Counted from the first letter of the stretch, positions 1-43,408 are shown. The stretch: DNA of 64,000 nt from Schmidtea nova (GCA_044892505.1 CM097883.1:284890001-284954000); one strand, 5' to 3'. Translations and numbers: made by a program. Notes: a model not told the origin generated them from the sequence alone.

Positions 1-1
1 T

Positions 2-151
2 GAAAATATTTTGAGTGATACAAAAATAAAGAAACCAAAATATAAAATAGGTGATCATGTTCGAATTAGTAAAATTAGTGCATCGCCATTCATTAAAAAT
101 TTTGATAGTAATTGGAATGATGAGGTATTTAAAATATCGAAAGTCAACACA
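2..151 (+). pseudogene. Polinton/Maverick retroviral-like integrase, C-terminal region, 5' piece (interrupted; starts before the window)
   Basis: Frame from base 2 reads ENILSDTKIKKPKYKIGDHVRISK...NWNDEVFKISKVNT, matching the Polinton integrase C-terminal motif KxKxGDxVRISK...NWxxEVF. It continues in frame at 43190 once the insertion and one TSD copy are removed. Confidence 0.85.
146..151. repeat. 6-bp target site duplication AACACA, left copy
   Basis: Identical AACACA at 43184-43189, immediately outside both TIR ends. 6-bp TSDs are typical of Polintons. Confidence 0.9.
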
Positions 152-1235
152 AATAGGCAGTTATGTGGAGCATGAGTCATCGCAGAACAAAGTAAATGAC
201 GCCACCCCCCCGGGGGGGTGAGAAAATTTTTTATGACTCATCGATGACGTCATCGATGACTCATCGATGACGTCATCGATGACTCATCCCGATGACTCAT
301 CGGCATGACTCATCGATGACGTCATCGATGACTCATTTCAAATTTGAATTTTATGACGTCATCGATGACTCATTTCAAATTCAAATTTTGAATTTGAATT
401 TCCAAAGGTCAAATAAGGTCAAACCTTCAAACAAGGGTATCATTCGAAAGGTCTTTGAGAGGTGCACACAATGGTCATACCCTCGAGGGTCTATGGTGTG
501 TCCTTAACCTTCAAAGGGTCAAAAACCTTCAGATTTTTCAAACCTTGTGTGTAATACATCATTCGAAAGGTAATACCGATGTGCACACAATGGTCATACC
601 TTCGAAGGTGTATGGTGTGTGCTCAACCTTCAAGGGGTCAAAATCCTTCAAATATTTTTAAACATTACAAGTTATATATCAAACAAAAGGTAATTGAGAT
701 TTGAGTATGATGGTCAACCCTCGAAGGTGGGTGGTCGACCCTTGAAGGGTCCAAGACTCAAAATTTTAAAAAATATATAATATATGTATCAAACAAAAGG
801 TAATTGAAGGGTGCACACAATGGTCATACCCTTAAAGGGTCCAAGGTTCAAATTTTTAAAACTATATAATATGTATATCAAACAAAAGGTAATTGTGAGA
901 TGAGTGTGTGTGTTACAATTTGCCAGACGAGTGTGTGTTACAAATCCTTATTCAAACCTTATAATATACATATCATTCGAAAGGTAATTATGGTGTGTGT
1001 GTGTTATAATTTTTTCTATTTCCTACCTGAATTACAACAAAGACATTGCAATCCATGTGCAACGAAACAAAGACTAATAAAACTTGTAATAATAATTTTT
1101 GCACACGTATCTTAGTGTTTAATAAGGATCACAGTACGCATTGAACGCGCGTGGAACGCGCGTTCTTCTCCTCTTGTTGTTTAAGACAAATAACAGTACG
1201 CATTGAACGCGCGTGGAACGCGCGTTCTTCTTCTC
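152..1235 (+). repeat. Left Polinton-type terminal inverted repeat (visible part, up to the N block)
   Basis: Reverse complement of 42119-43183 and of 53149-54225. Contains degenerate sub-repeats CACAATGGTCATACC and AACAAAAGGTAATTG, and ACGCATTGAACGCGCG units next to the N run. Confidence 0.9.
173..372. promoter_or_regulatory. Array of AP-1 (TGACTCA/TGAGTCA) and CRE (TGACGTCA) consensus sites in the TIR
   Basis: AP-1 at 173, 234, 257, 280, 293, 306, 329 and 366; CRE at 245, 268, 317 and 354. Similar arrays occur at ~42985-43165 and ~54050-54205. Confidence 0.6.
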
Positions 1236-1571
1236 NNNNNNNNNNNNNNNNNNNNNNNNNNNNNNNNNNNNNNNNNNNNNNNNNNNNNNNNNNNNNNNNN
1301 NNNNNNNNNNNNNNNNNNNNNNNNNNNNNNNNNNNNNNNNNNNNNNNNNNNNNNNNNNNNNNNNNNNNNNNNNNNNNNNNNNNNNNNNNNNNNNNNNNNN
1401 NNNNNNNNNNNNNNNNNNNNNNNNNNNNNNNNNNNNNNNNNNNNNNNNNNNNNNNNNNNNNNNNNNNNNNNNNNNNNNNNNNNNNNNNNNNNNNNTATAA
1501 AAATTCAAACAATCAAAAACTAAAATTGAAATTACTAAATTTTATTGAATATAACATTTATAAAATAACAA

Positions 1572-1988
1572 TTATGCATATCGTGCACTGTCAATTCTCC
1601 AAATTGGAGTTATAACATCTTTTGTATCGATTTTATATCCCTGAATGATTATGGTAATAAACCAATTTTCTTGATCCTTGTATTCGATAGATTGGAAAGC
1701 ATCATGGAAACGAGTTTTCCGGTTGTTGATCCATATAGTTTCCTTGCAACTTAAATTGTTATTGATTTTAAATAAAATTTTATTTAGTGCAACAACATCT
1801 TCTTTACATAGATTTGCAGCTAAATTGTCATACAATGACTTTGTTAATTTCACTGGATACGACAAACGAAACGGTATTTCTTGTACCAAGAAATAAATTT
1901 TGTAATCGTAATACATTTGCACTGGTTTCACTTCATTATTGATTTTTCTTTCTTCACTGATATCATAAGTTGATTTACGTGCTGGCAT
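1572..1988 (-). CDS. Foldback-arm hypothetical protein ORF138, left copy
   Basis: Intact 138-aa ORF with the same translation as 12800-13216. Upstream CCAAT and TATA-like motifs. A decayed homologue lies at 57289-57653. Confidence 0.7.
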   Translation of the reverse strand: MPARKSTYDISEERKINNEVKPVQMYYDYKIYFLVQEIPFRLSYPVKLTKSLYDNLAANLCKEDVVALNKILFKINNNLSCKETIWINNRKTRFHDAFQSIEYKDQENWFITIIIQGYKIDTKDVITPIWRIDSARYA

Positions 1989-2572
1989 TTTTGAAATTGT
2001 GACAATCTCTACTAAATGTCTTTGTATTTATAATGATGAGTAATACCTTTGCCCAATCAAAATGACGCATTCTAACTGCACATGTTATGCATGTCTTCAT
2101 ACATGTCTTTGTTGCAAGCATGTCGTTGTTGCAGGTATGTCTTTGTTGCATGTCTTTGTCGTGTGTTAATTATACATGTATGTTTATTTTGTTGAAACTG
2201 GTTATATAATACATGACTTTGTTGTAATTAATTGATGCATATGCATTTATTATTGAAATTGTCTTTATTTATAAAAATTACTATTAAACATAATTCATTT
2301 AAATAAAACTTATTTAAAACTTAATAAAAATTACTAGTAAACCTATTTCATTTCAAAAAAAAAACTAATTAAAAATTATTTTAAAATTATTTAAAAAATT
2401 TATTTAAAAACCGAATAAATAACTCATTAACAAAATAAAAAAAAACTGAAACAGAAAAAACTAAAATAACAATAATAAAAGATTTATTAAATAATAAAAT
2501 GTGAATACATAAAATGTGTCTACATAAAAAGAAAATACACAAATAAATAAAAACATATAACATTTATAATGT

Positions 2573-3247
2573 TTATTCTGCAATCTCTATATTTGAAAGC
2601 TTGCGATGGCATTGATCGCAATCAGGCGATTGAGGCGATTCAATACATTTGTTTTCGTCGGATTGATCCATAGCAGTCCAACAACCAAAAGATAATTGTA
2701 ATTCTGGCAATTCATCTAAATGATCAGGTGAATTATCGCAATCATGCGATTTATCGCAATCATGCGATTTATCGCAATCATGCGATTTATCCCAATCTGG
2801 CGATTTTTCATCATCCGACGCTTCGGGTGTTGAATTTGGCCATTGCTTTGGAATCTCGTCCTCCTCGTCAATTTTTTCCAATTTCTTGGAATCCATTTCA
2901 AATTGGTGGAGGGCGTTTCGTAACATCCAGACCCGATACTTCTGTATACGGTCCATACAATGGCCGCATTGGTATGCGCACAAGATGTGCTCCGCCATAT
3001 ATGGCATTTCACTGTCCCGATTAGTCAGATGATCCAGTAAGACCTGATGAATATCGATCCCAGTCAGGCATTGAATTTTGTAGGGAAAGAGCTCCGGTGC
3101 TGCATAGGTCAGCTTCGGCATCAGCATCGGATAGATTTCCTCAAGTTTACCGTAAAGTACGGAAATTAATTTCTCTAAAATGAAAAAATTATAAAAATGA
3201 AAAAATAGTAAACTTTAAAATTTACCATATTTCATTATCTCGGGCAT
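2573..3247 (-). CDS. Foldback-arm spliced protein (~207 aa), acidic with Cys/His and a (DKSHDC)x3 repeat, left copy
   Basis: 184-aa ORF 2573-3127 extended by a 51-nt GT-AG intron to an ATG at 3247; mirror image of 11541-12215. Confidence 0.6.
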
Positions 3248-3299
3248 TTTGTGATTGTGAATATAAATGATAGCAAAATGTTAATTGTATATATATATA

Positions 3300-6200
3300 C
3301 GATAGAAACACAAGGCATGTACAAAATATTACACACTGAACCAATCAGATTCGAGTATGCATAACATGTATTTATTATCGAAATATACATTGGACCAATC
3401 AGAATAGTGCATTAATATTGCAGATTTATTGCAATCATGAGTCACATGTTATTATAAAATCAACAAAGGCTTTATCTTCGATAATTTATTTTATATCGAT
3501 AATAATATTATCAACTATATTTAAATAATCCCTAGTTTTTAAACCTAATACAACTACTTTACCACTTGCAAATATACTAACACACATGTGGTTATATTTT
3601 ATATATCTCAAAGCTGGAAATATTTTCAGGTTCGTAAACACACTATTAATTTAGACTAATAATATGAATATCATCACACTGAGCAGGTAAATACATGACA
3701 AATTATCATACTATACAGATCATTACACAAATTATTTTTATACTAGAGTACAAATATATCAAAAATATATGAAATATATATATAAATGAAATATCAGAAC
3801 AAAGTATCTTTAAATACATCAAATATTATTATACTATTATGCAAACTACATACAAAATGTCATCATACTATAGTTTAATAACATAGTTTAATAACATAGA
3901 AAATCATTAAAAGTACACACAAAATATCTAAAATACATATAAATTCATCACACACACATATAAAATAACATTACATATATGAAATATTATTACACAAAAG
4001 GTTATCACATGAAAGAAATATCTACGTACTATTGAGAATCATACACACAAAATATATAGAAATTCATCACACACACACATGAAATATTATTACACAAAAG
4101 ATTATCACATGCACAAAATATTATCATACTATAATGCAAAATACACACAAAATATCATTACATGAAATATTATCACAAAGTAACGTTATATACATGAAAT
4201 ATCATCCGATACATGAAATTTCATCACAAAAAATCATCATACACACAAATTATATACAAAGTTTATCATAAATACTAGAAATACAGACAATAATAATCAT
4301 AAAAAGAAATATTATCACACTAGTGGAAATATATACACAAAAGCTTATCAGATGTACGAAATATTATTATTGTACCATAATGCAAAATACAAATAAAATG
4401 TCAAAATTAAAAGCATATACACAAAGTATTATCACATTATAGTGTAAAAACATTAGAAATACATACAAAATATATGAAATGTCATCACAAAATATCCAAG
4501 ATTCACAAAGAAAATATTAAAAATACAAACAAAAGATTATCATATTATTGTTTGATAACATAAAAATACATAGAAAATCATCAAAATACGTACAAGTATC
4601 ATTACATAGATAAACTATAATTATCACATACATGAAATATCTTCATAGAAAATATCAAAAGTACATAGAAATAAATCCTATACACAAAGGATATCATTAC
4701 ACATGTGAAATATCTTTACATACATAAAATGTCATCATGCTTTAATGCAAATACGGACAAGAAATATCTTCATGTTATAATGCAAATACACATAATATTA
4801 AAAGTTATATCATATACACACACAAAGGGTATCATACACATGAAAACTTGTCATGTTATAGTCAGTCAAATGAATGAAATATTATTATACTAGTGTAAAA
4901 TACATACATAATTTCAAAGAATGCATCATACAAAGGATATCATCACAATATATCATCATACTATAGTGCAATTACATAGATAATCATCAAAAAGATACAA
5001 AAATTAATCAAATTCACAACAATAATCATTAAAGAAATATCTACATACACAAAGAAAATCATATACACATACTTAGAAAATCATCATATACAAAATATCA
5101 AAAGTTCATTACACATACAAAATATAATCACATATATCATAAATCTATAATGTAACAGTAATAAATGTTCAAGTAATGAGCTTTTGCACATGAAAACCAT
5201 CACAAAAGATGTTATGCTTCTAGGGTTCTGATAGCAATGTTCTGTTCGCAATGTTCTGCTACTGTATAAAATTAATGAAAATTATATGAATGAAAATAAA
5301 TCTTTCAAACATTACAGTAAATTCTACTTTAAAATGAGATCGAATGCATGAAATGTCATCATACTATAGCGAAAATACATGAAAATATTCACAAAGTGAC
5401 ATTAGATACATCAAATATTATCTTACTAGTTTGATAACATTGAGAAAGAAAATATATAGAAATCATCAAAAATATACACACAAAATATTAAAAATAAGTC
5501 ATATGAAATCTCATCACAAAATACATAGATATTCATGACACACGTACAAAATATCAAAAATACAAACATACACAAAATATTATCACATTATAGTGCAACA
5601 ATATTAGAAATACATACAAAATATGAAATATATATGAAATGTCATCACAAAGTATCATTAAATACATAATATATCATCATGAAATATCATTACATACATG
5701 AAATATCATCCTTCTATAGTGCAATTACAAGAATATACCCACACAATATCAAAAATATATTGAAATTCATCAAAATACATAGAAATTCATCAAACAAGAA
5801 ATATGTACATAATAGTTGTCATTAAAAGTGTATCAGTAAATGTAATATGCTTTCACAATTAGTTTGTTACATTGATCGAAGCTCATATGATTAAGCTAAT
5901 GATTGTTATTTTAGTATATGTGTGAATAATAAACTTTTGCACATAAAAACCATCACAAAAGATGTTCTGTTACTAAAGGTTCTGCTAGCAATGGTCTGTT
6001 AGCAATGTTCTGCTACTGAATAAAATTGATGAAAATATAACAATAATGAATTATGAGTGAAAATAAATCTTTCAAACATTACAGTAGGTTCTACTTTAAA
6101 GTGAGAAAAACCAATAGATATTTTAAAAGCAATGTAGAAAATATTAATGGGTGAGAATATTAGAACAATTAATGTTGAATGAAGTTGAATTGTAACAGTA

Positions 6201-6975
6201 ATAATTAAATAAATGTTCGAGTAATAAGCTTTTGCAGATAAAAACCATCACAAAAGATGTTCTGCTACTAGTGTTCTGTTAGCAAGGTTTTGCTACTAGG
6301 GTTCTGATAGAAACGTTAGACTACTTATCATATTTCAAGTCTGAATTGTTGATATAAATCACTGTGACGCATGTTTAAAACACTTGTACTGTCATGTTAT
6401 GCATGTGTCATGCACTTGTATTGCAACTTGATTGCATTTGTATTGCAACTTGATTGCATTTGTATTGAAACTTAATTACACTTGTATTTCTTGTGTCATT
6501 CACTTGTGATATTCAAGAACATGTATATTTTCTTTCATTTTCCTTAAATATTAATCATTTTTACATAATTTAATTATTTTCAGAGTAAATTTAATACAAA
6601 ATAGTAAAGATATTGACAATTCCTGTATTTATTAAGCAATGATTTTGGATACTTTGTGATGATACAAAATGGTTGTAAAATGATAAAACATTATTTCCTC
6701 CGTAGAAGTGTATAAAACCATAAATTGATTCAAGGAAATATTCAATGGATTTGTCTAATAAGTTAAAAAAGTTGTATTTTAATCAAACTGTACATATTGA
6801 ATCATAGTTTTTAGAGTCAATTTCTTGCAAAAAACAAAGCGGATTTTCAAAATTCATGTTATAGTTCTAAATCAAACTTTAAAATTTAAAATACCACAAC
6901 GTAAAATATTTTTAAAGTACCACAACGTAATAAAAGTTGGTATATATCTATTAGAATTTTATAAGTAATTCATTT
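3300..6975. repeat. AT-rich degenerate low-complexity region of the left arm
   Basis: Recurring AAATATCATCACA and ATACATGAAATAT-like units; no credible ORF; mirrored at 7789-~11480. Confidence 0.65.
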
Positions 6976-7425
6976 GAGATAATAAATATATTACGTTAGT
7001 GGTAATTGCCAGATGTTTAAAAAACTCCAACATTAGAAAAAGTATCAAGCAAGTTAACCTTATTCCAAAAAAAAAAACATATTTATATACATGATAAGGT
7101 TTTTCTCTTCAAACTTTTGAATATTTTATAATTTCATTGGAAGATCAAAAAAAAAAAAATAAAATAAAATAAAATAAAATATGGCCTGAAATAATATATG
7201 AATTAACTCTATTATTTCGTCTCTTCATATTTTAAAATAGCCACAATATTATATATTCTCAATAGCTTTACTATAAATAATTTATTTATAAATATTCAAA
7301 ACGTTTTCCCGTTATTTACTTTATTTTTATTATTCAATAATTACTACAATAATAATCAAAAATTAAATCAGATGATATATAAATCTTATAATAAAAGTCA
7401 AAAACTCTTAAAATAATTTATTTCA

Positions 7426-7782
7426 TTAAAATTCTTTAGCTTCTCGCATTTGATTCATCAATTGTTCATTTTCAATTTTCAATTTTAGTATTTCTAAATT
7501 CTTTCTGCGAAGCTTCTGTATCATTCTTTCCTTTGATTCCCGGTAGAGATTGATCATTTTCTCTAGTTCCTCCATTCGACTCTTAATGTGAACCTTTGAA
7601 CCATTGACCTTTGGAATTTCATGACTTTTTCCTAATAAATGTAATAATATTAATAATAATTTTAGAAAAATAAGTATAATTTTACTTGAACTTTTAGAAC
7701 TTTCAGGTAGCGAACTTCCATGTACCGAGATTGATTCATTCTCTGCGTTATTATTATTATTGCTAGTTTGTTGACTGTTCAT
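7426..7782 (-). CDS. Loop gene of the foldback: ~100-aa coiled-coil protein after removal of a 54-nt in-frame intron (7632-7685)
   Basis: Only ORF in the unique 813-bp spacer 6976-7788. The apparent hydrophobic stretch coincides with gtaaaa...ttattag. C-terminal heptads LKIENEQLMNQM. Confidence 0.55.
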   Translation of the reverse strand: MNSQQTSNNNNNAENESISVHGSSLPESSKSSSKIILIFLKLLLILLHLLGKSHEIPKVNGSKVHIKSRMEELEKMINLYRESKERMIQKLRRKNLEILKLKIENEQLMNQMREAKEF

Positions 7783-7788
7783 TGTTTA

Positions 7789-10700: not shown

Positions 10701-11480
10701 ATTTCATGTGTGTGTGTGTGATGAATTTCTATATATTTTGTGTGTATGATTCTCAATAGTACGTAGATATTTCTTTCATGTGATAACCTTTTGTGTAATA
10801 AAATTTCATATATGTAATGTTATTTTATATGTGTGTGTGATGAATTTATATGTATTTTAGATATTTTGTGTGTACTTTTAATGATTTTCTATGTTATTAA
10901 ACTATGTTATTAAACTATAGTATGATGACATTTTGTATGTAGTTTGCATAATAGTATAATAATATTTGATGTATTTAAAGATACTTTGTTCTGATATTTC
11001 ATTTATATATATATTTCATATATTTTTGATATATTTGTACTCTAGTATAAAAATAATTTGTGTAATGATCTGTATAGTATGATAATTTGTCATGTATTTA
11101 CCTGCTCAGTGTGATGATATTCATATTATTAGTCTAAATTAATAGTGTGTTTACGAACCTGAAAATATTTCCAGCTTTGAGATATATAAAATATAACCAC
11201 ATGTGTGTTAGTATATTTGCAAGTGGTAAAGTAGTTGTATTAGGTTTAAAAACTAGGGATTATTTAAATATAGTTGATAATATTATTATCGATATAAAAT
11301 AAATTATCGAAGATAAAGCCTTTGTTGATTTTATAATAACATGTGACTCATGATTGCAATAAATCTGCAATATTAATGCACTATTCTGATTGGTCCAATG
11401 TATATTTCGATAATAAATACATGTTATGCATACTCGAATCTGATTGGTTCAGTGTGTAATATTTTGTACATGCCTTGTGT
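7789..11480. repeat. AT-rich low-complexity region of the right arm (inverted copy of 3300-6975)
   Basis: Reverse complement of the left arm with small differences, e.g. three versus two copies of the unit CAATACAAATGCAATCAAGTTG near 8295-8365. Confidence 0.7.
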
Positions 11481-33400: not shown

Positions 33401-35963
33401 ATTCCTCATTATATATTACTTCTAGCGCATTATCTAGTAATTTCTGGATCTCGTCCTCTTTTACTTGAATAGTTTCTGGTGTCTTTACTACTTCTATCTT
33501 TTTGTCTTCGATTTCCGGTTCGTTTAGCATGTCCCCTGCTAGACTACTGACGTCACTATCCTCTTCGTCATCTGAAAAATTCTTTGCCTGGCCTCTCAAC
33601 ATGTTAATGTGTTTTATTTGGTTGATTTCACTTGGTGTATTTTCCGTTGGTCTTGTTTCACTTTTAATAGCTTTTTGTGTTGATTCACTCTTGTCGTCTA
33701 CTACTTCGACCTTTCTCATTTTTCGTTCTAACTCGTCTATTTCTCCCAACCGTCTTCGTATCATTTTCCCTTTAAATATTCGACTGATTCGTGTTTCGTG
33801 ACGCACTGGCGATGGAATTCCTTCTGGTTCTATTTCCTTGATTACCATCACATTTCTTTTTGTCTCTACTACTCCCATGTTTTCCCATGTATCCGTTAGT
33901 TTCAATTTTACTTCTGGTGCACCTTCTATTTTTAGGAATGCTTCTCTGGGCAGTTTCGTTACTCCTGGAGCCATTTCATTCACTTTATTGAACAATATTT
34001 CTACTTCTTCCTTTATGTTATATTGGAATCGAAACACGTGCTTGTTTGGCAAAATTACCATCATTCCTCTTTTCCCGAGTTTCCTTTTCTCTTCTTGGTT
34101 CCCTTCTTTTTCTACTTCCTTTTCTGTTTCTTTTTCTGCTTCTTCATCTTCTTGTATTATCTCTTTTCGGCCTTCGTTGTTGGTTGGATTCGGGTTTGTT
34201 GGATTTATTTCTGGCACAGTCTCTTTCTCGTGGGTATTTGTTTGATTGGTTGCTCTCATCATATTAATTCTTAGAGGTTGTCGTTCTCTTTCTTGCTGTT
34301 TTTGTTCCTCTTCTCTTTGTATTCTTGCCCATTCCTGAGCATGTCGTGCTTGACTTTCCCGATTCAATCGTTCGTTTTCGCTTTCTATTTTTCTCATCAT
34401 ATTGATTTGTTGTTGACCTGTTTGCGGATTTCCTCTGGTTGTATTGTTTATCAGCTCCGTCAATCTTTGGACCTCTTGCATTAAATGTATCTCTTTAGTG
34501 GTATTTTTATTTTGGTTGTTATTATTACTATTTGGTTGGTTTCCGTATTCCGGTTGGTTTCCATTATTTGGCTGATTTCCATAATTCTGTCGGTTTCCAC
34601 CAGTTGGTTGGTTTCCATAGTTTTGTCGGTTTCCGGTATTCTGCCAGTTTCCTCGTTGATTGCTTCTTTGTCCGCAATTTCTTGATAGGTGTCCAGGTCG
34701 TCCACAATTAAAACAGGTTATTGTGTAACATCTGCTCTCTGAATGCCCTTTTACTCCACATTTTCCACAATTCAAGTTCTGATAACATTCTTGTTGCCAA
34801 TGTCCCAATTTCCCACATGTTTTGCATTGTTTCGTTGGTCCTTGGGGGTTGTAATTGTTTTGATTTCCGTAATTTGATACTTTATTCCCTTCATTCCTTC
34901 GTTGCGGTGGTGGTAGGTTTAATTGTTGTGAATTTGGAATGTGGTTATTCAGGTTCACTTCTTGTTCGTTTTGTGCTGTATCCATAGCTAAATAGATTCT
35001 ACCATCATTTCCTATCATGTGTAGTTCAAATCTATTAGCTGTTTCTAGTGCTTGGTCGATGGTTTTACAACCTTGACATCCAACTTGCGCTCTTATGTCG
35101 GGTCTTCTTAATCCTCCCACAAAGATAGCTGCCATTAACTCCTCATTTATTGGACTGTCTTGATTGAAAATCAACTTTGCTAACTTTTTCAATTCGCTTG
35201 CATATACCGCATTCGATTCATTTATCTTTTGTTTCCTCATTGAGAATTCCGTAAATGCCTCATTCAATACTTTATTTATTCCGAAGGTTTGTTGGAAAAA
35301 GTCCTTTATCGCTGACCAACTTGTAGGTGGATTAATTCCATTTTTTGCTTCCAAATATAGATCTAATGCGCTATCTTTTAAATATAGCTGAATTCTGCTT
35401 ACAGTTGTTTCTGGTTTCCACTTGCATACTTCCACGAATATGCCAAATTCCTTTAAGAAAGTTTCTAATTTACTCGCATCTCCATTAAACGGTTCTCCGG
35501 AAAATTTGTCTTTTATCTCTTCTCTTGGTTCGCTCATTTCAATTCCGCTGTCTGTAGTTATTTTACTTTCGTTTCCTCTTGTTTCTAGTTCACTGTTAGG
35601 TTCGTCACTCGAATTTCGGTCGATCTCAGTTTCTTTTGCTGATTCGTTATCTGATGCTTTACTATCGTTATCGGTATCGTCACTTTCTGTTTCTTGTTCT
35701 ACTTCGTCTTCTATTTCTTCTATATAATCGTTGTTGGTTTTGTCGACTTCTATTTCACTTATTGGGTTTCTCTCGGGTTCTGCTTGATTTTCTTTGTTGC
35801 TTGGACTGTTGCTTGTTACTGATAATTTATCGTTTTCGATAATCGATTTGTGTATTATTATCTTCCTCGCTTTACTTCCTTTTAGGCCTTTCTGCTTATT
35901 ATTCTTGGTAGCTTTATTCTTTTCTGCTGGTTTTATTATGACACTCTTTTCTCCTTTTCTCAA
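30474..35963 (-). CDS. gag: Extended Gag polyprotein: capsid, three CCHC zinc knuckles, N/Q/G repeats, ubiquitin-like domains, AT-hook, Bcl-2-like domain, C-terminal hydrophobic segment
   Basis: Knuckles CKTCGKLGHWQQEC, CGKCGVKGHSESRC and CFNCGRPGHLSRNC (34674-34826); BH2-like EPYIISKGGWETF. The track start is TTG; the first ATG is near codon 143, so the true start is unresolved. Confidence 0.88.
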   Translation of the reverse strand: MRKGEKSVIIKPAEKNKATKNNKQKGLKGSKARKIIIHKSIIENDKLSVTSNSPSNKENQAEPERNPISEIEVDKTNNDYIEEIEDEVEQETESDDTDNDSKASDNESAKETEIDRNSSDEPNSELETRGNESKITTDSGIEMSEPREEIKDKFSGEPFNGDASKLETFLKEFGIFVEVCKWKPETTVSRIQLYLKDSALDLYLEAKNGINPPTSWSAIKDFFQQTFGINKVLNEAFTEFSMRKQKINESNAVYASELKKLAKLIFNQDSPINEELMAAIFVGGLRRPDIRAQVGCQGCKTIDQALETANRFELHMIGNDGRIYLAMDTAQNEQEVNLNNHIPNSQQLNLPPPQRRNEGNKVSNYGNQNNYNPQGPTKQCKTCGKLGHWQQECYQNLNCGKCGVKGHSESRCYTITCFNCGRPGHLSRNCGQRSNQRGNWQNTGNRQNYGNQPTGGNRQNYGNQPNNGNQPEYGNQPNSNNNNQNKNTTKEIHLMQEVQRLTELINNTTRGNPQTGQQQINMMRKIESENERLNRESQARHAQEWARIQREEEQKQQERERQPLRINMMRATNQTNTHEKETVPEINPTNPNPTNNEGRKEIIQEDEEAEKETEKEVEKEGNQEEKRKLGKRGMMVILPNKHVFRFQYNIKEEVEILFNKVNEMAPGVTKLPREAFLKIEGAPEVKLKLTDTWENMGVVETKRNVMVIKEIEPEGIPSPVRHETRISRIFKGKMIRRRLGEIDELERKMRKVEVVDDKSESTQKAIKSETRPTENTPSEINQIKHINMLRGQAKNFSDDEEDSDVSSLAGDMLNEPEIEDKKIEVVKTPETIQVKEDEIQKLLDNALEVIYNEEFIDKKHYRKFMRAILQMNYKEWLPGREVETLSQYVGKLLKEPLHEYIILIEIKTCLPRIWIKAPLTEDIYQWVEDRLGSSYKNKFLYSQNGLVKKRTHLIETGIWPGEVTTLSICDDKREENLQEVAKEANTCFEKKIKPRLEYEKGRILRGNLNSMIEQIIPQIKKHRKELMRSEYEKLKRCIECIRDTSHTRWSQISYGKVVAKMGKAMFRQGKITDLKISVELPNEDTKEIEVVADCTIKELVNVINETLLQREPEEEWEDDIIMKYNEHVLWDHDERRLYKIGIWDNHQTIHVIRMDDTPRETAKDEKRERERQKEVVHKLQQIVDIYRNWRIWPEWEDVLEELNLNRRLRTPVEKQWNERGKCWEPKAGEYEEEYEISIEDDHKPETGRVCMVTRKAMPADLDGPETATMWLEREKQKTEEFVEILKTNAHGKRKLVKGLADFFVVNGEDITCLRKVAKAIAEYKRVNEWCPEQLDHVIKKWRNQEFSQESPQKVHLRIVYPNQEKEEFWVGIVEKVRDIKKKLRYEPPFHLQHQGRSLDNSLEIGITPAQLDIANTLTVAAIAGQPLKLKEEKKPKGSMSTPSPMKSVMTPGTSSEQARTTPRETRERTPPEPYDVDEIFTDSDDMLEELIELTKEKDDNIFERIQELPTAIPVTNTEDEVEQEIIIEEVNEIAEEEARRANVENVQFTQEMERWLEERANEPRDVTEETGRETRLVETGTTMDKRPRGRPKMDPANVVIKSREEKRRDQWDLCLKKLNKIAETKEKETTQTYQGEEWISKMLMEILAIIDPELKKWWRINEIGERAKSLHSAIAPILPELIKEKTRSNHLDWQGTTMLIKKLTEGAETDNKYLIAMAYTIYNLLTLSRGRLKPTALERHIKNTAKIIEKEIEPYIISKGGWETFTKTNQKKNQAKNMKRKFEEILGELEKEKSGTGNGKSSLNLSSIIMMMLIWMISTDGATAFEVFD

Positions 35964-36513
35964 CGGGATTACTTTTGTATACTCAATTTTCCTGTCTTAT
36001 CGTGTTCCGATTCTTTTCTTCCTTGGTTGCTTGGTTTGGTTTGATTGATTTATCTAAAATACAAATGTCACTTCAACGATACTCTATTGTTATCGTTGCG
36101 CTTTTATTCCCTTTTTACGGGACTTCTCATTACTGGGTTTCTATTATTTTTCCCCATTCCCAGATTCCCCTTTATTTAAGTCTATTTAAATTATCTATAT
36201 ACTAGTCACAATTATCCATTTAGTCATAACAATTATCTATCGGTTATTCAAATACATCAATTATTTTTCCCGCGGTCTCCCAATTTATTTGTCGTTCGAA
36301 CGCTCTAATTCCCTGAGTCATTTGACTCGATTATTATTTTATCATCTCTTTATCTTTCTCTCTGCTAGCCTCTAATTATTAATTCTGCCGGTCTTTCCGG
36401 TCAGCTCCTATTTCTCAATTCTACTTGCATGCATTATTTTAGGTCGCATAATCAGCTTTACTCGCATTTCTCAATTCCTGGTGCGCACTATTCTCATTAT
36501 CGTCGACGATCAC

Positions 36514-36725
36514 AACTCTGGGCCTATATTCCCTCTGTTGTTATTTCTTATCACTTGCAACCCTGGGCCTATATTCCCTCCGTTGCTACTCAAACGATTG
36601 TAACCCTGGGCTTATATTCCCTCCGTTACTATCTTCCTTTAATTTTAAATAATTGCAACCCTGGGCCTATATTCCCTCCGTTGCTACTCAACAATTGTAA
36701 CCCTGGGCCTATATTCCCTCCGTTA
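36514..36725. repeat. Five dispersed copies of AACCCTGGGCCTATATTCCCTCCGTT in the 5' leader
   Basis: Copies begin near 36514, 36559, 36603, 36657 and 36699. Confidence 0.85.
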
Positions 36726-36749
36726 CTATATATCCGGATATCCCTATTG

Positions 36750-36935
36750 GCTCCTTTGGCCTCTAATTAATATCAATTATCTCAAATGGCTCTTATGGCC
36801 TCAAATTCATATCTCAACTATCTCAAATGGCTCTATTGGCCTTAAATCATATCTCAATTATCTCAAATGGCTCTATTGGCCTTAAATCATATCTCAATAA
36901 CGCCTAGCTAGGTCATTCAATATGGCTCTTTGGCC
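36750..36935. repeat. ~40-bp tandem repeat with core ATCTCAAATGGCTCTATTGGCCT
   Basis: About five degenerate GGCTCxxxTGGCCT units visible. Confidence 0.75.
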
Positions 36936-36937
36936 TC

Positions 36938-37152
36938 AACCCTTTGTTTCAAGGGACAAACCGCTGATAACCCTTTGTTTCAAGGGACAAATTCTAATAA
37001 CCCTTTGTTTCAAGGGACAAACCGCTGATAACCCTTTGTTTCAAGGGACAAATTCTAATAACCCTTTGTTTCAAGGGACAAACCGCTGATAACCCTTTGT
37101 TTCAAGGGACAAATTCTAATAACCCTTTGTTTCAAGGGACAAACCGCTGATA
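36938..37152. repeat. Seven-copy tandem hairpin repeat AACCCTTTGTTTCAAGGGACAAA with alternating 8/7-nt linkers
   Basis: Exact 23-bp core seven times; linkers alternate CCGCTGAT and TTCTAAT; internal CCCTT/AAGGG stem. Confidence 0.9.
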
Positions 37153-37628
37153 ACTTTTCCTTAACCGGTTAATCGTAATTCTTAACTTCGCTAGCGACTA
37201 CAATTTCTCAGCTGAGTTCTCTCAATTTCATGCGAGCTGATTATGCACCTCTTATTTTTCTCTACAATTCCTCGATTCTTTGTTTTATTACTAATTCTTT
37301 CGCTGATCAGCCATAATTCAATTTTTATTATTTTCTCTGCGCGCATCTTAACTCATCGTGGTTTTCCCTATTTCTCTCCCCAACCAAAATATACAAAAAG
37401 ATCGCGTTGGTCTACTAGTGCGAGATGTGGTGATCAATCACATAGCAAAAGCTTTCCAACATTTGCGATTGGCCCCTTTCTATATACCCCGAGTGGGTTG
37501 ATCAACTGGTACCTCCCAATGGGTGCTTAACGGACTACTTGACAGTAGCTCAAAAATTAATTAACATTGTTGATTGCTCCCCTGACTTTGTCATTCGATA
37601 CAATATATTAACACACTCTAAATATTTA

Positions 37629-38090
37629 TTATAAATAAACTACAATTCTATCAGCTACAGAGAAATTGCACATGGGGCACTCATCACACTTATTCGCACA
37701 GTTTTTACAAAATCGAAAATGTCCGCATGGTAGAAACATTATTTGGATTTCACTGTCTTCGCATATGTAACATTGTTTATATTGTTTTGCTGCCTCGACC
37801 CCTTGCGACATCCATCGGTTATATGTTAGGTTTAACTGCTGTTCTATATGTCGGCATCTAATATTCAACTCGGCATCCTCTAATCGTGCTTTGTACCATT
37901 TATATCGCGTATTTATATCGAGTTTATTCACTTTCTCTATGATTTTTATTAACTCAGTTGTTTCCTCCGTTTGTGTCGTAGGTTCCTCATATTCGGATGC
38001 TCTTATTCGGGTTATTTTTTCGCAGACTGTCTCAAATGTATCGTTCTCGGTGTTGAAAAATTCCTCGATTTCTTTCAGTTTTTCCTCCAT
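37629..38090 (-). CDS. C-terminal RING finger protein of IAP/MDM2 type, no BIR visible (153 aa)
   Basis: CYIC...FLPCGH...CKNCA...CPMC...IVVYL at the extreme C-terminus. Lies between the PBS and gag. Confidence 0.8.
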   Translation of the reverse strand: MEEKLKEIEEFFNTENDTFETVCEKITRIRASEYEEPTTQTEETTELIKIIEKVNKLDINTRYKWYKARLEDAELNIRCRHIEQQLNLTYNRWMSQGVEAAKQYKQCYICEDSEIQIMFLPCGHFRFCKNCANKCDECPMCNFSVADRIVVYL

Positions 38091-38430
38091 TTCCTAGATA
38101 ATTTATTTAATTACTGTGTTAATATTATTCGAAAAGTAGTACTGTGTTTCGTTTCTGACAGTTTTATAGCCTAGTACTGTGTTTCGTTTCTGACAGTTTT
38201 ATAGCCTCCCCCCGTGTTTCGGTAAATTGTCGTCCCGACCTGTTATTTATGAATGCATTTGTTCAATTTATCTACTAATTTGTTTTAATTCTCTGTTTGT
38301 AATTATCTATTTCCACGCAACTCACTTTTATCTCGTTTACTCTTTCGGTTACTATTTCTACTCACAAAATTCTGATTTTAAGTTTCTCTGTTGTCATTGG
38401 GTTCACCTTTTCCGCATAAAACAAAGTTGA

Positions 38431-38448
38431 ATCCCGGCTGAGCCCCCA
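38431..38448 (-). promoter_or_regulatory. Primer-binding site complementary to the 3' end of tRNA-Pro
   Basis: TGGGGGCTCAGCCGGGAT, 16/18 identical to the MLV tRNA-Pro PBS TGGGGGCTCGTCCGGGAT, 6 nt inside the 5' LTR. Confidence 0.8.
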
Positions 38449-39013
38449 AATTTATGCTGGGATTATGGGTGGGTTTTAAGTAATTCAGGTAAATCATTAA
38501 TCATTACTGAACGGCTAGTGATGAGTACTTATACTAGGGATTCCACGCCCATAACCATACATAACATGACTACTACACGCGTATGCCCTTGACTATTCCC
38601 TACTAGTCAAGTTGGTACTGCATACGGTGGTGGAAAAATGATGGGCAGGTGAGCTTTGTTGCCAAAACTACTCCCCATTTATCTTCCCGCGGGTCCTTGC
38701 TGCCGATAGAAGGTCTTACGCATTTACATTCTATGGATGTTCGTTTCTTACTGCATTTTATACTACATATCCTTATGATCTATCATACGCTTTTCCCAAT
38801 GACTTTCCTTAATGAATCTACAATGTAATTAATCAGTCCCTGCGTAGAAACGGTCGGTTTGAGAAAATTACGGATGCGATTTTCTATTTCGATGATTTCA
38901 GTGTTGTTAATTTAATTTTATTTAGTAACCTCGCCCGATGAGAGACAAAATTTACACAGAAAATACTTTTATTAAAATACTAAAACAGGTTGTTATTTTA
39001 CATGGATGTTTTC

Positions 39014-39598
39014 CTAAGCGAATTCCAGACTAATCTCCTGAATCAACTCCGCTTCGGTTAAGGAGTTCAAGTGGTGGATTTGTTCGTCCAGGCGCTTCGC
39101 AAATTCTCGGCGACGACGACGCTGTCGCGATCCCATTCGATGTTTTCGAAGCTGTTGGTTTATGACCGGCGCTGACGCTATTGTTCTCGGGGGATCACTG
39201 AGAAAAATAGGCAAATCTTCCGTTGCGAGAGTGGGGGTCATGATGATTCCCTCTTCCGTCCCGCAAGCGACATCTTGGTGAGTGCATTGTATCCAGCGCT
39301 GAGCCGTGATCGGCCGGATTAGCGCTCGCAATTCGGAGTCGATGTAACTTCTTGTTACTGCGTTCAGGCAATTTCGTAGTTCTCTCTGGACAGCGTCTAG
39401 TTCCAATTTAGTTGCGGCCAGTGCTTCCTGCATTCGCTCAAGTTTTTTCGACTGGTCCTTCATTTGTTCGGGCGAGAACCACTTCGCTCTCAATTCATCA
39501 TTGGCGACCGTGAGTCGCTTGATCTGTCGCTGCTGGTCCCTCAACTTCCTCTCTTGGATTTGTCCCATGATTTTCTTGGAATTTTCTGAAGTCGGCAT
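39014..39598 (-). CDS. LTR-encoded 194-aa protein, second copy
   Basis: Same translation as 13801-14385. Confidence 0.6.
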   Translation of the reverse strand: MPTSENSKKIMGQIQERKLRDQQRQIKRLTVANDELRAKWFSPEQMKDQSKKLERMQEALAATKLELDAVQRELRNCLNAVTRSYIDSELRALIRPITAQRWIQCTHQDVACGTEEGIIMTPTLATEDLPIFLSDPPRTIASAPVINQQLRKHRMGSRQRRRRREFAKRLDEQIHHLNSLTEAELIQEISLEFA

Positions 39599-39927
39599 GT
39601 TGTCTGAATATTATAACCATAAATTCGCTGGAGGACCTATCAACAATGATATTTTATTTAGTCTATTATTTACTATCATTAAACGAGATGCATACTAATG
39701 TTTTTAATTATTAAGTTTGTTGCAAAATTAATTAACTATCTAATTATTGAAGGCTCAAAAATTTTATTGAACTAATTTGAGATTATTAAATGAAATTCCT
39801 AATGACTATAACAACTACAATACTGGATATTAATAAATCTACATTACGACACTATTAACAAAATGAGACACTTCAGAAATTTTTTAAAACATTTATTAAA
39901 TTCAAAAATAGGTGGCCATTTATTCAA

Positions 39928-40404
39928 TTATCCATCTTCGGTCATTTTTCCCCGATACGAAAATATCGATTTAATTTGCAAATTTGTGTGGATCCCTGGG
40001 CTATTGGACGAGGCTTGCTGGAAGCGGATTCTCTCAGCTTCTCGAAGGGGTCGTATGGCTGTATTGAACTTGAACCCCAATTCCTTGAAGGTAGAGGCTG
40101 GAATGAACCCCCAATAAATGACACATTTCGGGAATCCACCTTTGTCCAACATCAGGATGAACCAGGCGGCGTGCCATGATTCGAATTCCTCGTCTGGAAT
40201 GATTGGCCAACTAGCGCATCCCCGGTACCATACGTGATGCCGTGGATGGTCCCATACTGTAAATGGACAGGCGGTTTCAAGCTCTCGGCGCCATGCCCAC
40301 ATTTTTTGATGGATTTGTTGTAAAATTTCGAAAGGAGCCGGCTTTAATGGGCTAACTCGGGCTCGTTCTTGTCGCTTTTTGATAGTGTATCTATGTTTAG
40401 TCAT
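39928..40404 (-). CDS. LTR-encoded 158-aa protein, second copy
   Basis: Same translation as 14715-15191. Confidence 0.55.
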   Translation of the reverse strand: MTKHRYTIKKRQERARVSPLKPAPFEILQQIHQKMWAWRRELETACPFTVWDHPRHHVWYRGCASWPIIPDEEFESWHAAWFILMLDKGGFPKCVIYWGFIPASTFKELGFKFNTAIRPLREAERIRFQQASSNSPGIHTNLQIKSIFSYRGKMTEDG

Positions 40405-42118
40405 GATTCTAAAACGATGCTACATTTTATAATAGTTACAATTTACATCAATAATTAATCATAGTAAATGTTATCTCTCATCGTGATACCCTTATTATTT
40501 GCCTTCCCCTTAGACCTTAGCTGAAATCAAGAAAAAACTGTTGCTTGTTACGGTATACATTACTCTCGTATCTACTTAGATTTATCTGTTTACGATCAAT
40601 TTTATAGTCGAAAAAAAGGGTGATTTGTCTGCTTGGATTTTTAAGATATTGATACCTCAAAACGGAAGTTCTCTCACGTCATGTATCCCTAGCTTATTCG
40701 AAAACGCTCTTTTGTATCAAATGCGGTCGACATAAATTTTCTAAGGTTTATTAGATGTTTATCTAGCAGCTGTGCTGCGGTGAGGGGGAACAATTTGTGC
40801 CTCCTCACGGTTAAAAAATTCTTTCATATCTTTAAGCTTTATCGAAAAATTATCGTCCCTTCTGTAGCTAAATTGATCGGAAAATAATTCCCCGGATTTG
40901 TTGGGTGTCCCATGTGCAAATCTCATCCATCACTAACAAAATTATGTTTTGTTATTTATTACTTTACCGTGTGTGGAGCCCTCGAGCACCACGCCACGGA
41001 CGGACACCTTGGGAACCTAAAGCTCCCAACGGCGCAAGATTAATATGCTAGGTTAAATAGTTTAAATATAACATAAATCATAATGAGACAAATAATAAAT
41101 TATAATATGATAATGACATATGAATACAGCGATATCAAATAATAAACGTAAATATACCAAAAATACCTCAATTGAATTCTGAAAATTTATTGATCAAAAT
41201 CGGTCTAAACGGTGATCGTCGTCGGGGCAATGTGCAATCTAATGTAAATTTTTAGTCTGAACACAAGTCTAAATTTTTGTCTCAAACAAAGTCACAAGTC
41301 TACAATCTATATTCTAACAAAGTCTAAGTTTTTACACAGTCTAACAACGTCTCTATTCTACCAAAGTCTGTTTTTTTGAGAAATCTGATCAGTATTTATA
41401 CTGATCAGTCGTGTCTAGACTGACCAATCAGGTTTGGCCAGTTTCATGGTGGTTTTTAATTATTGTTTTTGATTCTAATTAATTTTTATTTTTTAGATTG
41501 TATTCTTCCTTGGAGGTCCGGGTTTCAAAAACAATTATTCAATAACAAGTACTTTTATTTGGTTTTAATTATTATTATTTGTATTTTATTTGTTTTTAGA
41601 TGTCTCCTGGGCCCGTTAATATCTATAAATTCATTTATTTTTATTTATAGCTTGTACTTAGTTATTCTATATTTTTACTATATTATTCCTTTCTTTTAAT
41701 AAATAAATATTCCCCTTTTTACCTTATTTTTCTCTTTTTTGTTTTAATTAATCTACTTTTATTTCACTGTTCCCTCTATTTGGCTGGCCCAACAATTCAA
41801 TAAAATTTAGTAATTTCAATTTTAGTTTTTGATTGTTTGAATTTTTATANNNNNNNNNNNNNNNNNNNNNNNNNNNNNNNNNNNNNNNNNNNNNNNNNNN
41901 NNNNNNNNNNNNNNNNNNNNNNNNNNNNNNNNNNNNNNNNNNNNNNNNNNNNNNNNNNNNNNNNNNNNNNNNNNNNNNNNNNNNNNNNNNNNNNNNNNNN
42001 NNNNNNNNNNNNNNNNNNNNNNNNNNNNNNNNNNNNNNNNNNNNNNNNNNNNNNNNNNNNNNNNNNNNNNNNNNNNNNNNNNNNNNNNNNNNNNNNNNNN
42101 NNNNNNNNNNNNNNNNNN

Positions 42119-43183
42119 GAGAAGAAGAACGCGCGTTCCACGCGCGTTCAATGCGTACTGTTATTTGTCTTAAACAACAAGAGGAGAAGAACGCGCGTTG
42201 CACGCGCGTTCAATGCGTACTGTGATCCTTATTAAACACTAAGATACGTGTGCAAAAATTATTATTACAAGTTTTATTAGTCTTTGTTTCGTTGCACATG
42301 GATTGCAATGTCTTTGTTGTAATTCAGGTAGGAAATAGAAAAAATTATAACACACACACACACACCATAATTACCTTTCGAATGATATGTATATTATAAG
42401 GTTTGAATAAGGATTTGTAACACACACTCGTCTGGCAAATTGTAACACACACACTCATCTCACAATTACCTTTTGTTTGATATACATATTATATAGTTTT
42501 AAAAATTTGAACCTTGGACCCTTTAAGGGTATGACCATTGTGTGCACCCTTCAATTACCTTTTGTTTGATACATATATTATATAGTTTTTAAAATTTTGA
42601 GTCTTGGACCCTTCAAGGGTCGACCACCCACCTTCGAGGGTTGACCATCATACTCAAATCTCAATTACCTTTTGTTTGATATATAACTTGTAATGTTTAA
42701 AAATATTTGAAGGATTTTGACCCCTTGAAGGTTGAGCACACACCATACACCTTCGAAGGTATGACCATTGTGTGCACATCGGTATTACCTTTCGAATGAT
42801 GTATTACACACAAGGTTTGAAAAATCTGAAGGTTTTTGACCCTTTGAAGGTTAAGGACACACCATAGACCCTCGAGGGTATGACCATTGTGTGCACCTCT
42901 CAAAGACCTTTCGAATGATACCCTTGTTTGAAGGTTTGACCTTATTTGACCTTTGGAAATTCAAATTCAAAATTTGAATTTGAAATGAGTCATCGATGAC
43001 GTCATAAAATTCAAATTTGAAATGAGTCATCGATGACGTCATCGATGAGTCATACCGATGAGTCATCGGGATGGGTCATCGATGAGTCATCGATGAGTCA
43101 TAAAAAATTTTTCTCACCCCCCCGGGGGGGTGACGTCATTTCCTTTGTTCTGCGATGACTCATGCTCCACATAACTGCCTACT
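42119..43183 (-). repeat. Right TIR of the foldback element
   Basis: Reverse complement of 152-1235; ends CTGCCTACT, followed by TSD AACACA. Confidence 0.9.
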
Positions 43184-43408
43184 AACACAGTCCAGAATCC
43201 TGTCATGTATACTATTTCTGACTCTGATAACAATATAGTCAGTGGGAAATTCTATGAACAAGAATTACAAGTTATTCCCCCTCCGACAATATTTAGAATT
43301 CAAAAAATATTGAAAACTAAAATGGTAGGTAAGGATAAACAATACTATGTAAAGTGGCATGGATATAAAGAACCATCATGGATATCGTCAAAAGACCTAG
43401 TAAAGTGA
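43184..43408 (+). pseudogene. Polinton integrase C-terminus with chromodomain, 3' piece (starts with the right TSD)
   Basis: NTVQNPVMYTISD...GKFYEQELQ...FRIQKIL...QYYVKWHGY...SWI, in frame with 2-151. Confidence 0.88.

What the first reader, a model, noticed from the sequence alone, without database searches (positions are those of the whole stretch)
146..43408. The satellite inserted into the integrase gene of a Polinton with the same TIRs
Seen: left flank ...FKISKVNT and right flank VQNPVMYTISD... rejoin in frame across AACACA, so the insertion splits the integrase upstream of the chromodomain. Inference: the satellite was mobilised by this Polinton family's integrase and disabled a helper copy. 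Targeting of helper genes would be a self-limiting or defensive behaviour; one event cannot show preference.
Basis: partly seen in the sequence, partly recalled or inferred. Interest (0 to 1): 0.7.

Follow-up and report, generated by a model that had tools for sequence, protein, structure and literature searches.

The report
Palindromic Polinton passenger inside its helper
A mirror-symmetric, helper-dependent DNA element has jumped into the integrase gene of a related virus-like transposon and cut it in two; the event is real, but a single case in a region packed with mobile DNA does not show that it seeks out its helper.

Summary
An element at 152-43183, bounded by a 6-bp target-site duplication (146-151, 43184-43189), interrupts a Polinton integrase. 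The two flanks map to adjacent residues in 18 of 19 intact homologues. The break is near residue 270 of about 341, so the last 72 residues, chromodomain included, are cut off.

Without a nested Burro-like LTR element the insert is about 14.5 kb and 94% palindromic. No Polinton integrase, polymerase or capsid gene was found in it, but each arm carries a predicted viral-type ssDNA-binding protein. Its TIRs belong to the host Polinton's family without being identical: 10 host-private changes in 893 columns, against 2 differences between the insert's own TIRs. Mobilisation in trans by this family's integrase is likely.

Targeting or defence is unsupported. There is one event, about 96% of the window is mobile DNA, and the host also has a capsid frameshift that cannot be dated. 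All TIR-to-interior links cross N gaps.

An older relic nearby pairs the same arm (92.6% identical) with a TIR only about 75% identical, hinting at TIR exchange between helper families. Verdict: a new variant of the non-autonomous Polinton, probably nested by chance.

The parts
1..151 (+). Host Polinton integrase, upstream piece (window starts inside the gene; about residues 220-269 of a 341-aa homologue)
146..151 (+). Left copy of the 6-bp target-site duplication
152..1235 (+). Left TIR of the insert (ends at an N gap in a 62-bp tandem array; 3 private substitutions in its outer 57 nt)
1236..1495 (.). Assembly gap (260 N)
1496..6975 (+). Left arm of the foldback; inner 3.7-6.9 kb is AT-rich degenerate repeats without long ORFs
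1572..1988 (-). 138-aa OB-fold protein resembling viral T7 gp2.5 / ASFV CP312R-type SSBs (left copy)
2573..3235 (-). Orphan gene of about 200 aa with a probable 51-nt intron (left copy)
6976..7788 (.). Unique 813-bp loop of the foldback; holds a small gene (7782-7426, minus strand) with a probable 54-nt intron
7789..13241 (-). Right arm (8 substitutions and 2 indels against the left arm in about 5425 columns)
11553..12215 (+). Orphan gene, right copy (probable intron 11563-11613)
12800..13216 (+). 138-aa SSB-like gene, right copy
13242..41794 (-). Nested 28.5-kb Burro-like gypsy LTR element (LTRs 13242-16581 and 38455-41794, 3 of 3340 different; 4-bp TSD 13238-13241 / 41795-41798)
41799..41849 (-). 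Remainder of the right arm, exact mirror of 1496-1546
41850..42118 (.). Assembly gap (269 N)
42119..43183 (-). Right TIR of the insert
43184..43189 (+). Right copy of the 6-bp target-site duplication
43190..43408 (+). Host integrase, downstream piece with chromodomain (72 aa)
43369..44424 (+). Host ORF (stop to stop), probable minor capsid protein; inferred from gene order, no library hit
44417..44797 (+). Host ORF, probable PW protein; inferred from gene order only
44794..46013 (+). Host double jelly-roll major capsid gene, frameshifted near 44,840
46115..46453 (+). Host adenovirus-type cysteine protease (ORF stop to stop; probable short 5' intron just upstream)
48399..52403 (+). Host family B DNA polymerase, presumed protein-primed; open frame with Exo I-III, Pol A-C and KxY motifs
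53149..54225 (-). Host Polinton right TIR (after a 652-N gap); about 98% identical to the insert TIRs
55276..58799 (+). Older relic of the same arm (SSB-like gene with 3 stops, split by an IS630/Tc1-like element at 56051-57269), joined across a 245-N gap to a divergent TIR (57899-58799)

Best explanation
The insert is a non-autonomous, foldback (palindromic) Polinton derivative of about 14.5 kb. SHOWN: Polinton-family TIRs, a 6-bp TSD, no detectable Polinton integrase, polymerase, ATPase motif or capsid gene, and position inside the integrase of a related, capsid-encoding Polinton. INFERRED: it replicates from its TIR origins with a helper's protein-primed polymerase; a displaced strand self-anneals along 94% of its length and so rebuilds a double-stranded origin; its own SSB-like protein supports strand displacement; and a helper integrase of this TIR family inserted it. 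It landed in this integrase opportunistically, in a nest of mobile DNA where insertions are tolerated. That cut the C-terminal 72 residues from this copy's integrase, a local accident with little effect on a presumably multicopy helper family. A Burro-like LTR element then inserted into one arm.
For: TSD and in-frame split. TIR identity about 98%. No Polinton integrase inside the insert; capsid and integrase homologue searches hit only the host flanks and the LTR integrase; no interior similarity to the visible host genes beyond AT-rich noise. SSB-like fold: AF2 pLDDT 92; best solved matches ASFV CP312R Z 7.7 (rmsd 4.0, 128 aligned), Enc34 SSB Z 7.1 (4.1, 107), T7 gp2.5 Z 7.0 (2.9, 102); 26 viral models at E<=1e-3 in BFVD, mostly large DNA viruses. 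Window about 96% mobile DNA with four layers of nesting. Size within the 12.7-24.6 kb range of intact vertebrate Mavericks (PMC8097293, section 7 read). Polintons lacking polB that stay mobile are reported (10.1101/2025.02.07.637071, section 13 read).
Against: One locus only, so chance landing is assumed, not measured. Three Polinton-TIR elements within 60 kb suggest at least regional clustering. TIR-to-arm links cross N gaps. The host's left end is outside the window, so the arm may simply be a normal Polinton end. SSB Z-scores of 7-8 are in the range the tool flags as possibly a common arrangement, Foldseek PDB gave no match at E<=1e-3, and ssDNA binding is untested. No other full foldback copy was seen, so repeated mobility is not shown.
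Confidence: 0.6

Rival explanations
1. Biased but not gene-specific integration: the satellite inserts preferentially into Polinton DNA, either because helper genomes are abundant next to it during co-replication or because the chromodomain integrase is drawn to silenced repeat clusters.
For: Host, insert and relic share one 60-kb neighbourhood. The host looks young: 0 in-frame stops in 7608 coding nt, where 3.1-4.5 would be expected if its 1.1% TIR distance were neutral decay (P0 0.012-0.044). Precedents: 91% of type-1 Ngaro retrotransposons lie in EMALE virophages, and chromodomain guidance of rve integrase is proposed there (PMC8547959, passages); repeated Polinton insertions at one nematode locus (PMC11414722, passages).
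Against: n=1. The relic lies outside the host. Unrelated LTR and Tc1-like elements crowd the same region, so clustering is not Polinton-specific.
Confidence: 0.22
2. Sequence- or gene-specific targeting of helper genes such as the integrase, acting as self-limitation or host defence.
For: The hit falls in an essential helper gene of the same TIR family.
Against: Single event. No evident similarity between target and TIR end (by eye). The host carries another lesion. Destroying one copy does not stop trans-supply from others, and the satellite needs the integrase itself (inference). Retroviral-type integrases are generally not sequence-specific (established knowledge, recalled).
Confidence: 0.07
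3. Origin rival, compatible with chance landing: the insert is not an independent satellite lineage but a snap-back (copy-back, defective-interfering type) product of one end of an autonomous Polinton, whose terminal genes include the SSB-like gene; or the foldback formed in place after a fuller element inserted.
For: The right arm runs directly into a loop gene whose start codon lies 7 nt inside the loop, as expected if arm plus loop is natural sequence and the other arm is its copy. Arms differ by only 0.15%. Insert and host genes share short AT-rich GT-AG intron candidates. Viral-type SSB fold.
Against: The relic carries the same arm beside a different TIR. About 3 kb per arm is non-coding degenerate repeat, unlike compact Polinton gene modules. 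A profile search found no SSB homologue in the visible 11 kb of the host.
Confidence: 0.35
4. Scaffolding artefact: the outer junctions are real, but the palindromic interior was wrongly linked across the N gaps or is a read-through chimera.
For: All four TIRs stop at N gaps in or next to a tandem array of about 62 bp.
Against: Arms differ at 8 sites plus 2 indels, and only one arm holds the LTR element with its own 4-bp TSD. The gaps flanking the arms are mirror-placed and similar in size (260 and 269 N), unlike the host's 652 N. The TIRs carry copy-specific variants.
Confidence: 0.07

Closest known systems
Polinton/Maverick elements (host element)
   Same: rve-chromodomain integrase followed by putative minor capsid, putative PW, DJR major capsid and C5 protease, matching the int-mcp-pw-Mcp-pro module described in PMC8097293 (section 7 read); polymerase with PolB motifs; TIR over 1 kb; AGTAG terminus.
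   Different: Polymerase lies downstream on the same strand; probable short introns; integrase split and capsid gene frameshifted; ATPase and left end lie outside the window and were not seen.
Non-autonomous Polintons (recalled from Kapitonov and Jurka 2006 and Repbase, neither readable here; polB-less mobile Polintons in 10.1101/2025.02.07.637071, section 13)
   Same: Polinton TIRs and 6-bp TSD without the replication and integration genes; depends on a helper in trans.
   Different: 94% palindromic, helper-genome sized, retains an SSB-like gene in both arms, nested in a same-family integrase. Whether palindromic forms are already in Repbase could not be checked.
Snap-back / copy-back defective-interfering genomes of linear DNA viruses and plasmids (recalled, no call)
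   Same: Two copies of one terminus joined through a loop, able to re-form a duplex origin.
   Different: Here integrated with a TSD and apparently persisting as a family (older relic); interference with the helper is not shown.
Transpovirons (PMC5499653, passages)
   Same: Linear, TIR-bounded, capsid-less passengers that can integrate into their helper virus genome.
   Different: Transpovirons are about 7 kb, encode an SF1 helicase and ride mimiviruses; this element has none of these features and shares TIRs with its helper.
Ngaro retrotransposons in EMALE virophages (PMC8547959, passages) and retrotransposons nested in PLVs (PMC12220804, passages)
   Same: A mobile element nested in, and sometimes breaking core genes of, a Polinton-class element.
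   Different: Those invaders are unrelated retrotransposons, and Ngaro preference rests on 80 copies; here the invader uses the host's own TIR family and there is one event.

Membership tests
Polinton/Maverick (host) | Retroviral-type (rve) integrase | tested here: met
   Both flanks are 58-84% identical to homologues, 14 of 19 with precomputed rve; the catalytic core itself is outside the window
Polinton/Maverick (host) | Protein-primed family B polymerase | tested here: inconclusive
   1334-aa open frame with Exo I-III, Pol A-C and KxY motifs (motif patterns recalled); no Pfam, PHROG or PDB polymerase hit; protein-priming subdomains not tested
Polinton/Maverick (host) | Double jelly-roll major capsid protein | tested here: met
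   AF2 pLDDT 92.7; Foldseek best SGIV MCP E 4.6e-17, PBCV-1 and mavirus MCPs follow; gene frameshifted near its 5' end
Polinton/Maverick (host) | Adenovirus-type cysteine protease | tested here: met
   Pfam Peptidase_C5 E 1.3e-6, above cut-off
Polinton/Maverick (host) | Packaging ATPase | not testable with these tools
   No Walker A motif in the window; the left part of the host lies upstream of the window
Polinton/Maverick (host) | Paired TIRs with 6-bp TSD | tested here: inconclusive
   Only the right TIR (53149-54225) is in the window, beyond an N gap
Non-autonomous Polinton (insert) | Polinton-type long TIRs with AG/AGT-like termini | tested here: met
   TIRs over 1 kb, about 98% identical to the host TIR; right end AGTAG, left end has one change at position 2
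Non-autonomous Polinton (insert) | 6-bp target-site duplication | tested here: met
   146-151 and 43184-43189; chance about 2e-4 to 5e-4
Non-autonomous Polinton (insert) | Lacks its own integrase, polymerase and capsid genes | tested here: met
   ORF list, Pfam, tblastn and profile scans; 529 N inside the insert are too short to hide them
Non-autonomous Polinton (insert) | Multiple independent insertions (a mobile family) | not testable with these tools
   Only one full copy and one truncated relic in the window; no eukaryotic genome collection was available
T7 gp2.5 / large DNA virus SSB group (138-aa protein) | OB fold of the gp2.5/CP312R type | tested here: inconclusive
   Top four VIA hits are CP312R, DUF2815, Enc34 SSB and gp2.5, Z 7.0-7.7, rmsd 2.6-4.1, 99-128 aligned; 26 BFVD hits at E<=1e-3; none at E<=1e-3 in PDB Foldseek
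T7 gp2.5 / large DNA virus SSB group (138-aa protein) | Binds single-stranded DNA | not testable with these tools
   Needs a binding assay
Helper-targeting hyperparasite (Ngaro-EMALE type) | Statistical enrichment of insertions inside the helper | not testable with these tools
   One event; the relic copy is outside the host
Burro giant gypsy retroelements (nested LTR element) | About 30 kb, long LTRs, env between gag and pol, TRAF-MATH, ankyrin and RING accessory domains | tested here: met
   28.5 kb, 3.34-kb LTRs, Monjiviricetes fusion domain upstream of protease, MATH, Ank and RING hits, against the description in PMC6431247 (passages); no direct sequence comparison with Burro was possible

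The most novel reading that the evidence does not exclude
A true Polinton satellite lineage in an animal genome: a capsid-sized palindromic replicon that brings its own SSB, swaps TIRs to track whichever helper Polinton family is active, and integrates preferentially into helper genomes, crippling them. It would be a defective-interfering, virophage-like hyperparasite of an endogenous animal DNA virus. The hint for TIR swapping is the same arm joined to a TIR 98% identical to the host here and to one about 75% identical in the relic, plus a mosaic left tip.
Probability: 0.12. Interest if true: 0.8.

Novelty: new variant of a known kind. Interest (0 to 1): 0.45.

Why it matters
Animal Polintons are known mainly from sequence, and how they replicate and choose targets is largely untested. 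A palindromic, helper-sized passenger with an SSB-like gene fits strand-displacement replication with panhandle formation and hints at a packaging-size constraint. If many copies exist, their insertion sites would directly test whether Polinton integrase is biased towards its own kind or towards silenced repeats. The locus also gives a clean order of events: host Polinton, then foldback, then giant LTR element. As it stands, the hit on the integrase is one nested insertion in a repeat cluster and is not evidence of defence.

Tried and rejected
Homologue search for the ~200-aa orphan: 0 of 84 candidates at E<=1e-3 (near lengths only); Atlas best score 0.78, uninformative. Atlas for the SSB-like protein: best 0.87, no family. 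Pfam, PHROG and PDB-sequence scans of its 35-member alignment gave no convincing family; 35 of 39 available sequences were aligned, P0141, P0170, P0175 and P0177 being left out as repetitive or long. PDB sequence searches for the capsid and polymerase found nothing significant; the phage DNA search found nothing; Rfam had 0 matches. No homology between the insert interior and host interior beyond low-complexity AT matches; one shared 16-nt motif near 47,101 was judged too weak to use.

Rejected: intramolecular autointegration of the host (both inner TIRs lead to the SSB arm, neither to the polymerase); a read-through palindrome artefact (arms differ and only one holds the LTR element); the host being a ten-fold older neutral fossil (too few stop codons).

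Rows dropped: 4 of the 12 arm substitutions lie beyond the true arm boundary at 6975 and were excluded; TIR columns 58-174 and columns within 3 of a gap were excluded.

Unchecked: other genomic copies, the host's left end, the genomic context and source organisms of the homologues (cluster look-up unavailable; viral and metagenome contig collections closed), Kapitonov and Jurka 2006 (not held) and Repbase. Literature searches (listings and abstract starts only) showed no report of a palindromic SSB-bearing Polinton satellite nested in a helper integrase; the library lacks most subscription papers. No supplements were read; those of PMC8097293 and PMC11410931 might hold relevant repeat annotations.
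Full report
VERDICT. It is most likely a helper-dependent, palindromic Polinton derivative that a same-family integrase placed, by chance, in a related Polinton's integrase gene. Targeting or defence is not shown.

1. THE SPLIT GENE. The element runs from 152 to 43183 with the same hexamer on both sides (146-151, 43184-43189); chance is about 2e-4 to 5e-4. A search with the right flank for longer proteins returned 19 homologues among 24 candidates, 14 with a precomputed rve domain. Compared separately, the last residue of the left flank and the first of the right flank fall on adjacent positions in 18 of 19; the other is one residue shorter. So intact, empty-site homologues exist at family level; the orthologous empty allele was not available. 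In the 341-aa homologue P0002 the rve domain is at 63-151, the break at 269/270 and the chromodomain at 305-339. The left frame stops 7 codons into the TIR. The catalytic core lies upstream of the window and was not seen.

2. THE HOST. Downstream come a 351-aa ORF and a 126-aa ORF (minor capsid and PW by gene order only; PMC8097293 section 7). Next are a major capsid gene (183 homologues among 2545 candidates; double jelly-roll fold, Foldseek E 4.6e-17 to SGIV capsid) and a C5 protease. A 1334-aa frame carries all family B polymerase motifs (motif patterns recalled; no library hit). A right TIR follows at 53149-54225. The capsid gene is frameshifted near 44,840: the ATG-frame peptide matches homologue N-termini in 57 of the 60 best homologues tested (of 120 listed), and the long frame matches from residue 16 onward. 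This may be a mutation or an assembly error and cannot be dated against the insertion, so 'disabled a working helper' is unproven.

3. ARE THE TIRS THE SAME? They are the same family but a different lineage. Insert left versus right differ at 7 of 1060 columns; host versus insert at 23 of 1036 and 25 of 1039. In the 893 clean inner columns, 10 changes are private to the host, 1 is private to the left TIR and 1 is three-way; Fisher p 1.5e-7 against the insert's per-copy rate. If the host's 1.1% were neutral decay, 3.1-4.5 stops would be expected in 7608 coding nt; none is present (P0 0.012-0.044). The host is therefore more likely a fairly young copy of a sister subfamily. It need not be the copy that supplied the integrase.

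4. THE INSERT. Without the nested LTR element it is 14,475 bp (gap sizes as given), with two 6.8-kb arms around an 813-bp loop, 94% self-complementary. The arms differ at 8 of about 5425 sites plus 2 indels; 4 further mismatches lie past the arm boundary and were dropped. A 28.5-kb gypsy element with a 4-bp TSD and LTRs differing at 3 of 3340 sites sits in one arm only. Its fusion-protein, TRAF-MATH, ankyrin and RING domains match the description of planarian Burro elements (PMC6431247, passages), which suggests a planarian host (inference). Arm and LTR divergences are statistically indistinguishable (p 0.56), so both events are recent and close in time. Profile, tblastn and motif scans found no Polinton integrase, capsid gene or Walker A motif inside, and no arm ORF is long enough for a polymerase.

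Each arm carries a 138-aa protein with 38 homologues at E<=1e-3 among 1.84 billion representatives. It folds confidently (pLDDT 92) and most resembles viral OB-fold SSBs: ASFV CP312R Z 7.7, Enc34 Z 7.1, T7 gp2.5 Z 7.0, with 26 BFVD models at E<=1e-3. These Z-scores are middling and PDB Foldseek had no hit at E<=1e-3, so SSB function is a prediction. A second, probably spliced gene of about 200 aa has no homologues.

5. MECHANISM. Shown: cis ends, TSD, absence of trans genes, nesting order. Inferred from protein-primed strand-displacement replication of adenovirus-like linear genomes (established knowledge, recalled): the helper polymerase starts at a TIR and the displaced strand snaps back over most of its length. 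That regenerates an origin and keeps the arms homogeneous, and the element's SSB-like protein may assist. The size lies within the 12.7-24.6 kb range of intact vertebrate Mavericks, and 3 kb per arm is non-coding filler. That would fit capsid-size selection but does not prove packaging. Whether this is an old satellite lineage or a snap-back of an ordinary Polinton end cannot be settled, because the host's left end is outside the window.

6. TARGETING? There is one event. By my annotation 95.6% of the window is mobile DNA, gaps included: Polinton, foldback, Burro-like element, relic, IS630/Tc1-like element and another gypsy. The target site does not resemble the TIR end by eye. The one related element lies about 1 kb outside the host. 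Real targeting of Polinton-class elements is known for an unrelated invader (91% of type-1 Ngaro in EMALEs; PMC8547959, passages). Retrotransposons breaking PLV integrases are also reported (PMC12220804, passages), as is local clustering of Polintons (PMC11414722, passages). In vertebrates 96% of Maverick copies are defective (PMC8097293, passages), so a broken copy is the norm. I give chance nesting 0.6, regional or proximity bias 0.22 and gene-specific targeting 0.07.

7. THE RELIC. At 55276-58799 the same arm recurs: the SSB-like gene differs at 27 of 366 nt and has 3 stops. Its TIR, however, differs from the insert's at 155 of 630 columns. The insert's TIR is thus 98% identical to an autonomous Polinton's, while its arm's relative sits by a TIR three times more distant than the arm. 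TIR exchange between helper families would explain this, but so would faster turnover of repeat-rich TIRs or a wrong link across the 245-N gap. The left TIR's three private changes in its outer 57 nt (raw p 1.5e-5, about 6e-4 after a rough correction) may be a second trace of end exchange, or an assembly effect.

8. CAVEATS AND NOVELTY. Every TIR is cut from its interior by an N gap. Mirror-placed gaps of 260 and 269 N, copy-specific variants and the one-sided LTR insertion argue against an artefact. Non-autonomous Polintons are known (recalled from Kapitonov and Jurka 2006, which was not held; polB-less mobile copies in 10.1101/2025.02.07.637071, section 13). Searches (listings only) showed no palindromic, SSB-bearing form nested in a helper gene, but Repbase and most subscription papers were out of reach. 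I also read passages of PMC3014272, PMC11410931, PMC5499653 and 10.64898/2026.10.13.758929; only PMC5499653 (transpovirons) bore on the comparison. Rating: new variant of a known kind, interest 0.45. The foldback satellite is more interesting than the fact that it hit the integrase.

Noticed in passing
window 153, 193, 202: Three substitutions private to the left TIR cluster in its outer 57 nt, one changing the terminal AG dinucleotide, against one private change in 893 inner columns; unexplained.
   Followed up: partly
window 55276-58799: Older relic of the same arm with a much more divergent TIR across a 245-N gap; possible TIR exchange between helper families.
   Followed up: partly
window 13242-41794: Burro-like element with near-identical LTRs (3 of 3340) whose gag-env-pol chain is nevertheless split by in-frame stops near 30,474, 27,123 and 22,666 and a frame change near 26,000; either defective when inserted, recoded, or assembly errors.
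   Followed up: no
window 11563-11613, 7632-7685, 46082-46120, 47431-47478, 48364-48420: Short (about 40-57 nt) AT-rich GT-AG intron candidates in both insert and host Polinton genes, whereas intact vertebrate Mavericks are described as intronless.
   Followed up: partly
window 43405-43410: The putative minor capsid frame has no ATG where it overlaps the integrase stop; its first methionine is some 37 codons later. Possibly a further lesion in the host; no homologue was available to test it.
   Followed up: no
window 56051-57269: Decayed IS630/Tc1-like element (HTH and DDE_3 remnants, about 100-bp TIRs with internal 21-bp repeats) inserted just upstream of the relic's SSB-like gene.
   Followed up: partly
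window 3700-5900 and mirror 8900-11100: Strongly strand-biased (48% A, 8% G) degenerate repeat filler without long ORFs; may be size filler.
   Followed up: no
window 47370-47810: Small, probably multi-intron host gene with low-complexity Gly/Asn/Ile repeats between ORF146 and the polymerase; unidentified.
   Followed up: no
window 1115-1235, 42119-42238, 53149-53268, 57899-58016: All four TIRs break into N gaps at a roughly 62-bp tandem unit containing a small GC-rich hairpin; could be an origin-associated array.
   Followed up: no
window 60571-64000: A second, decayed gypsy retrotransposon (RT, RNase H, integrase zinc-finger remnants) on the minus strand.
   Followed up: no
window ~50,200-50,330: The host polymerase contains an endonuclease VII-like zinc-finger segment (Pfam E 0.0019).
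   Followed up: no
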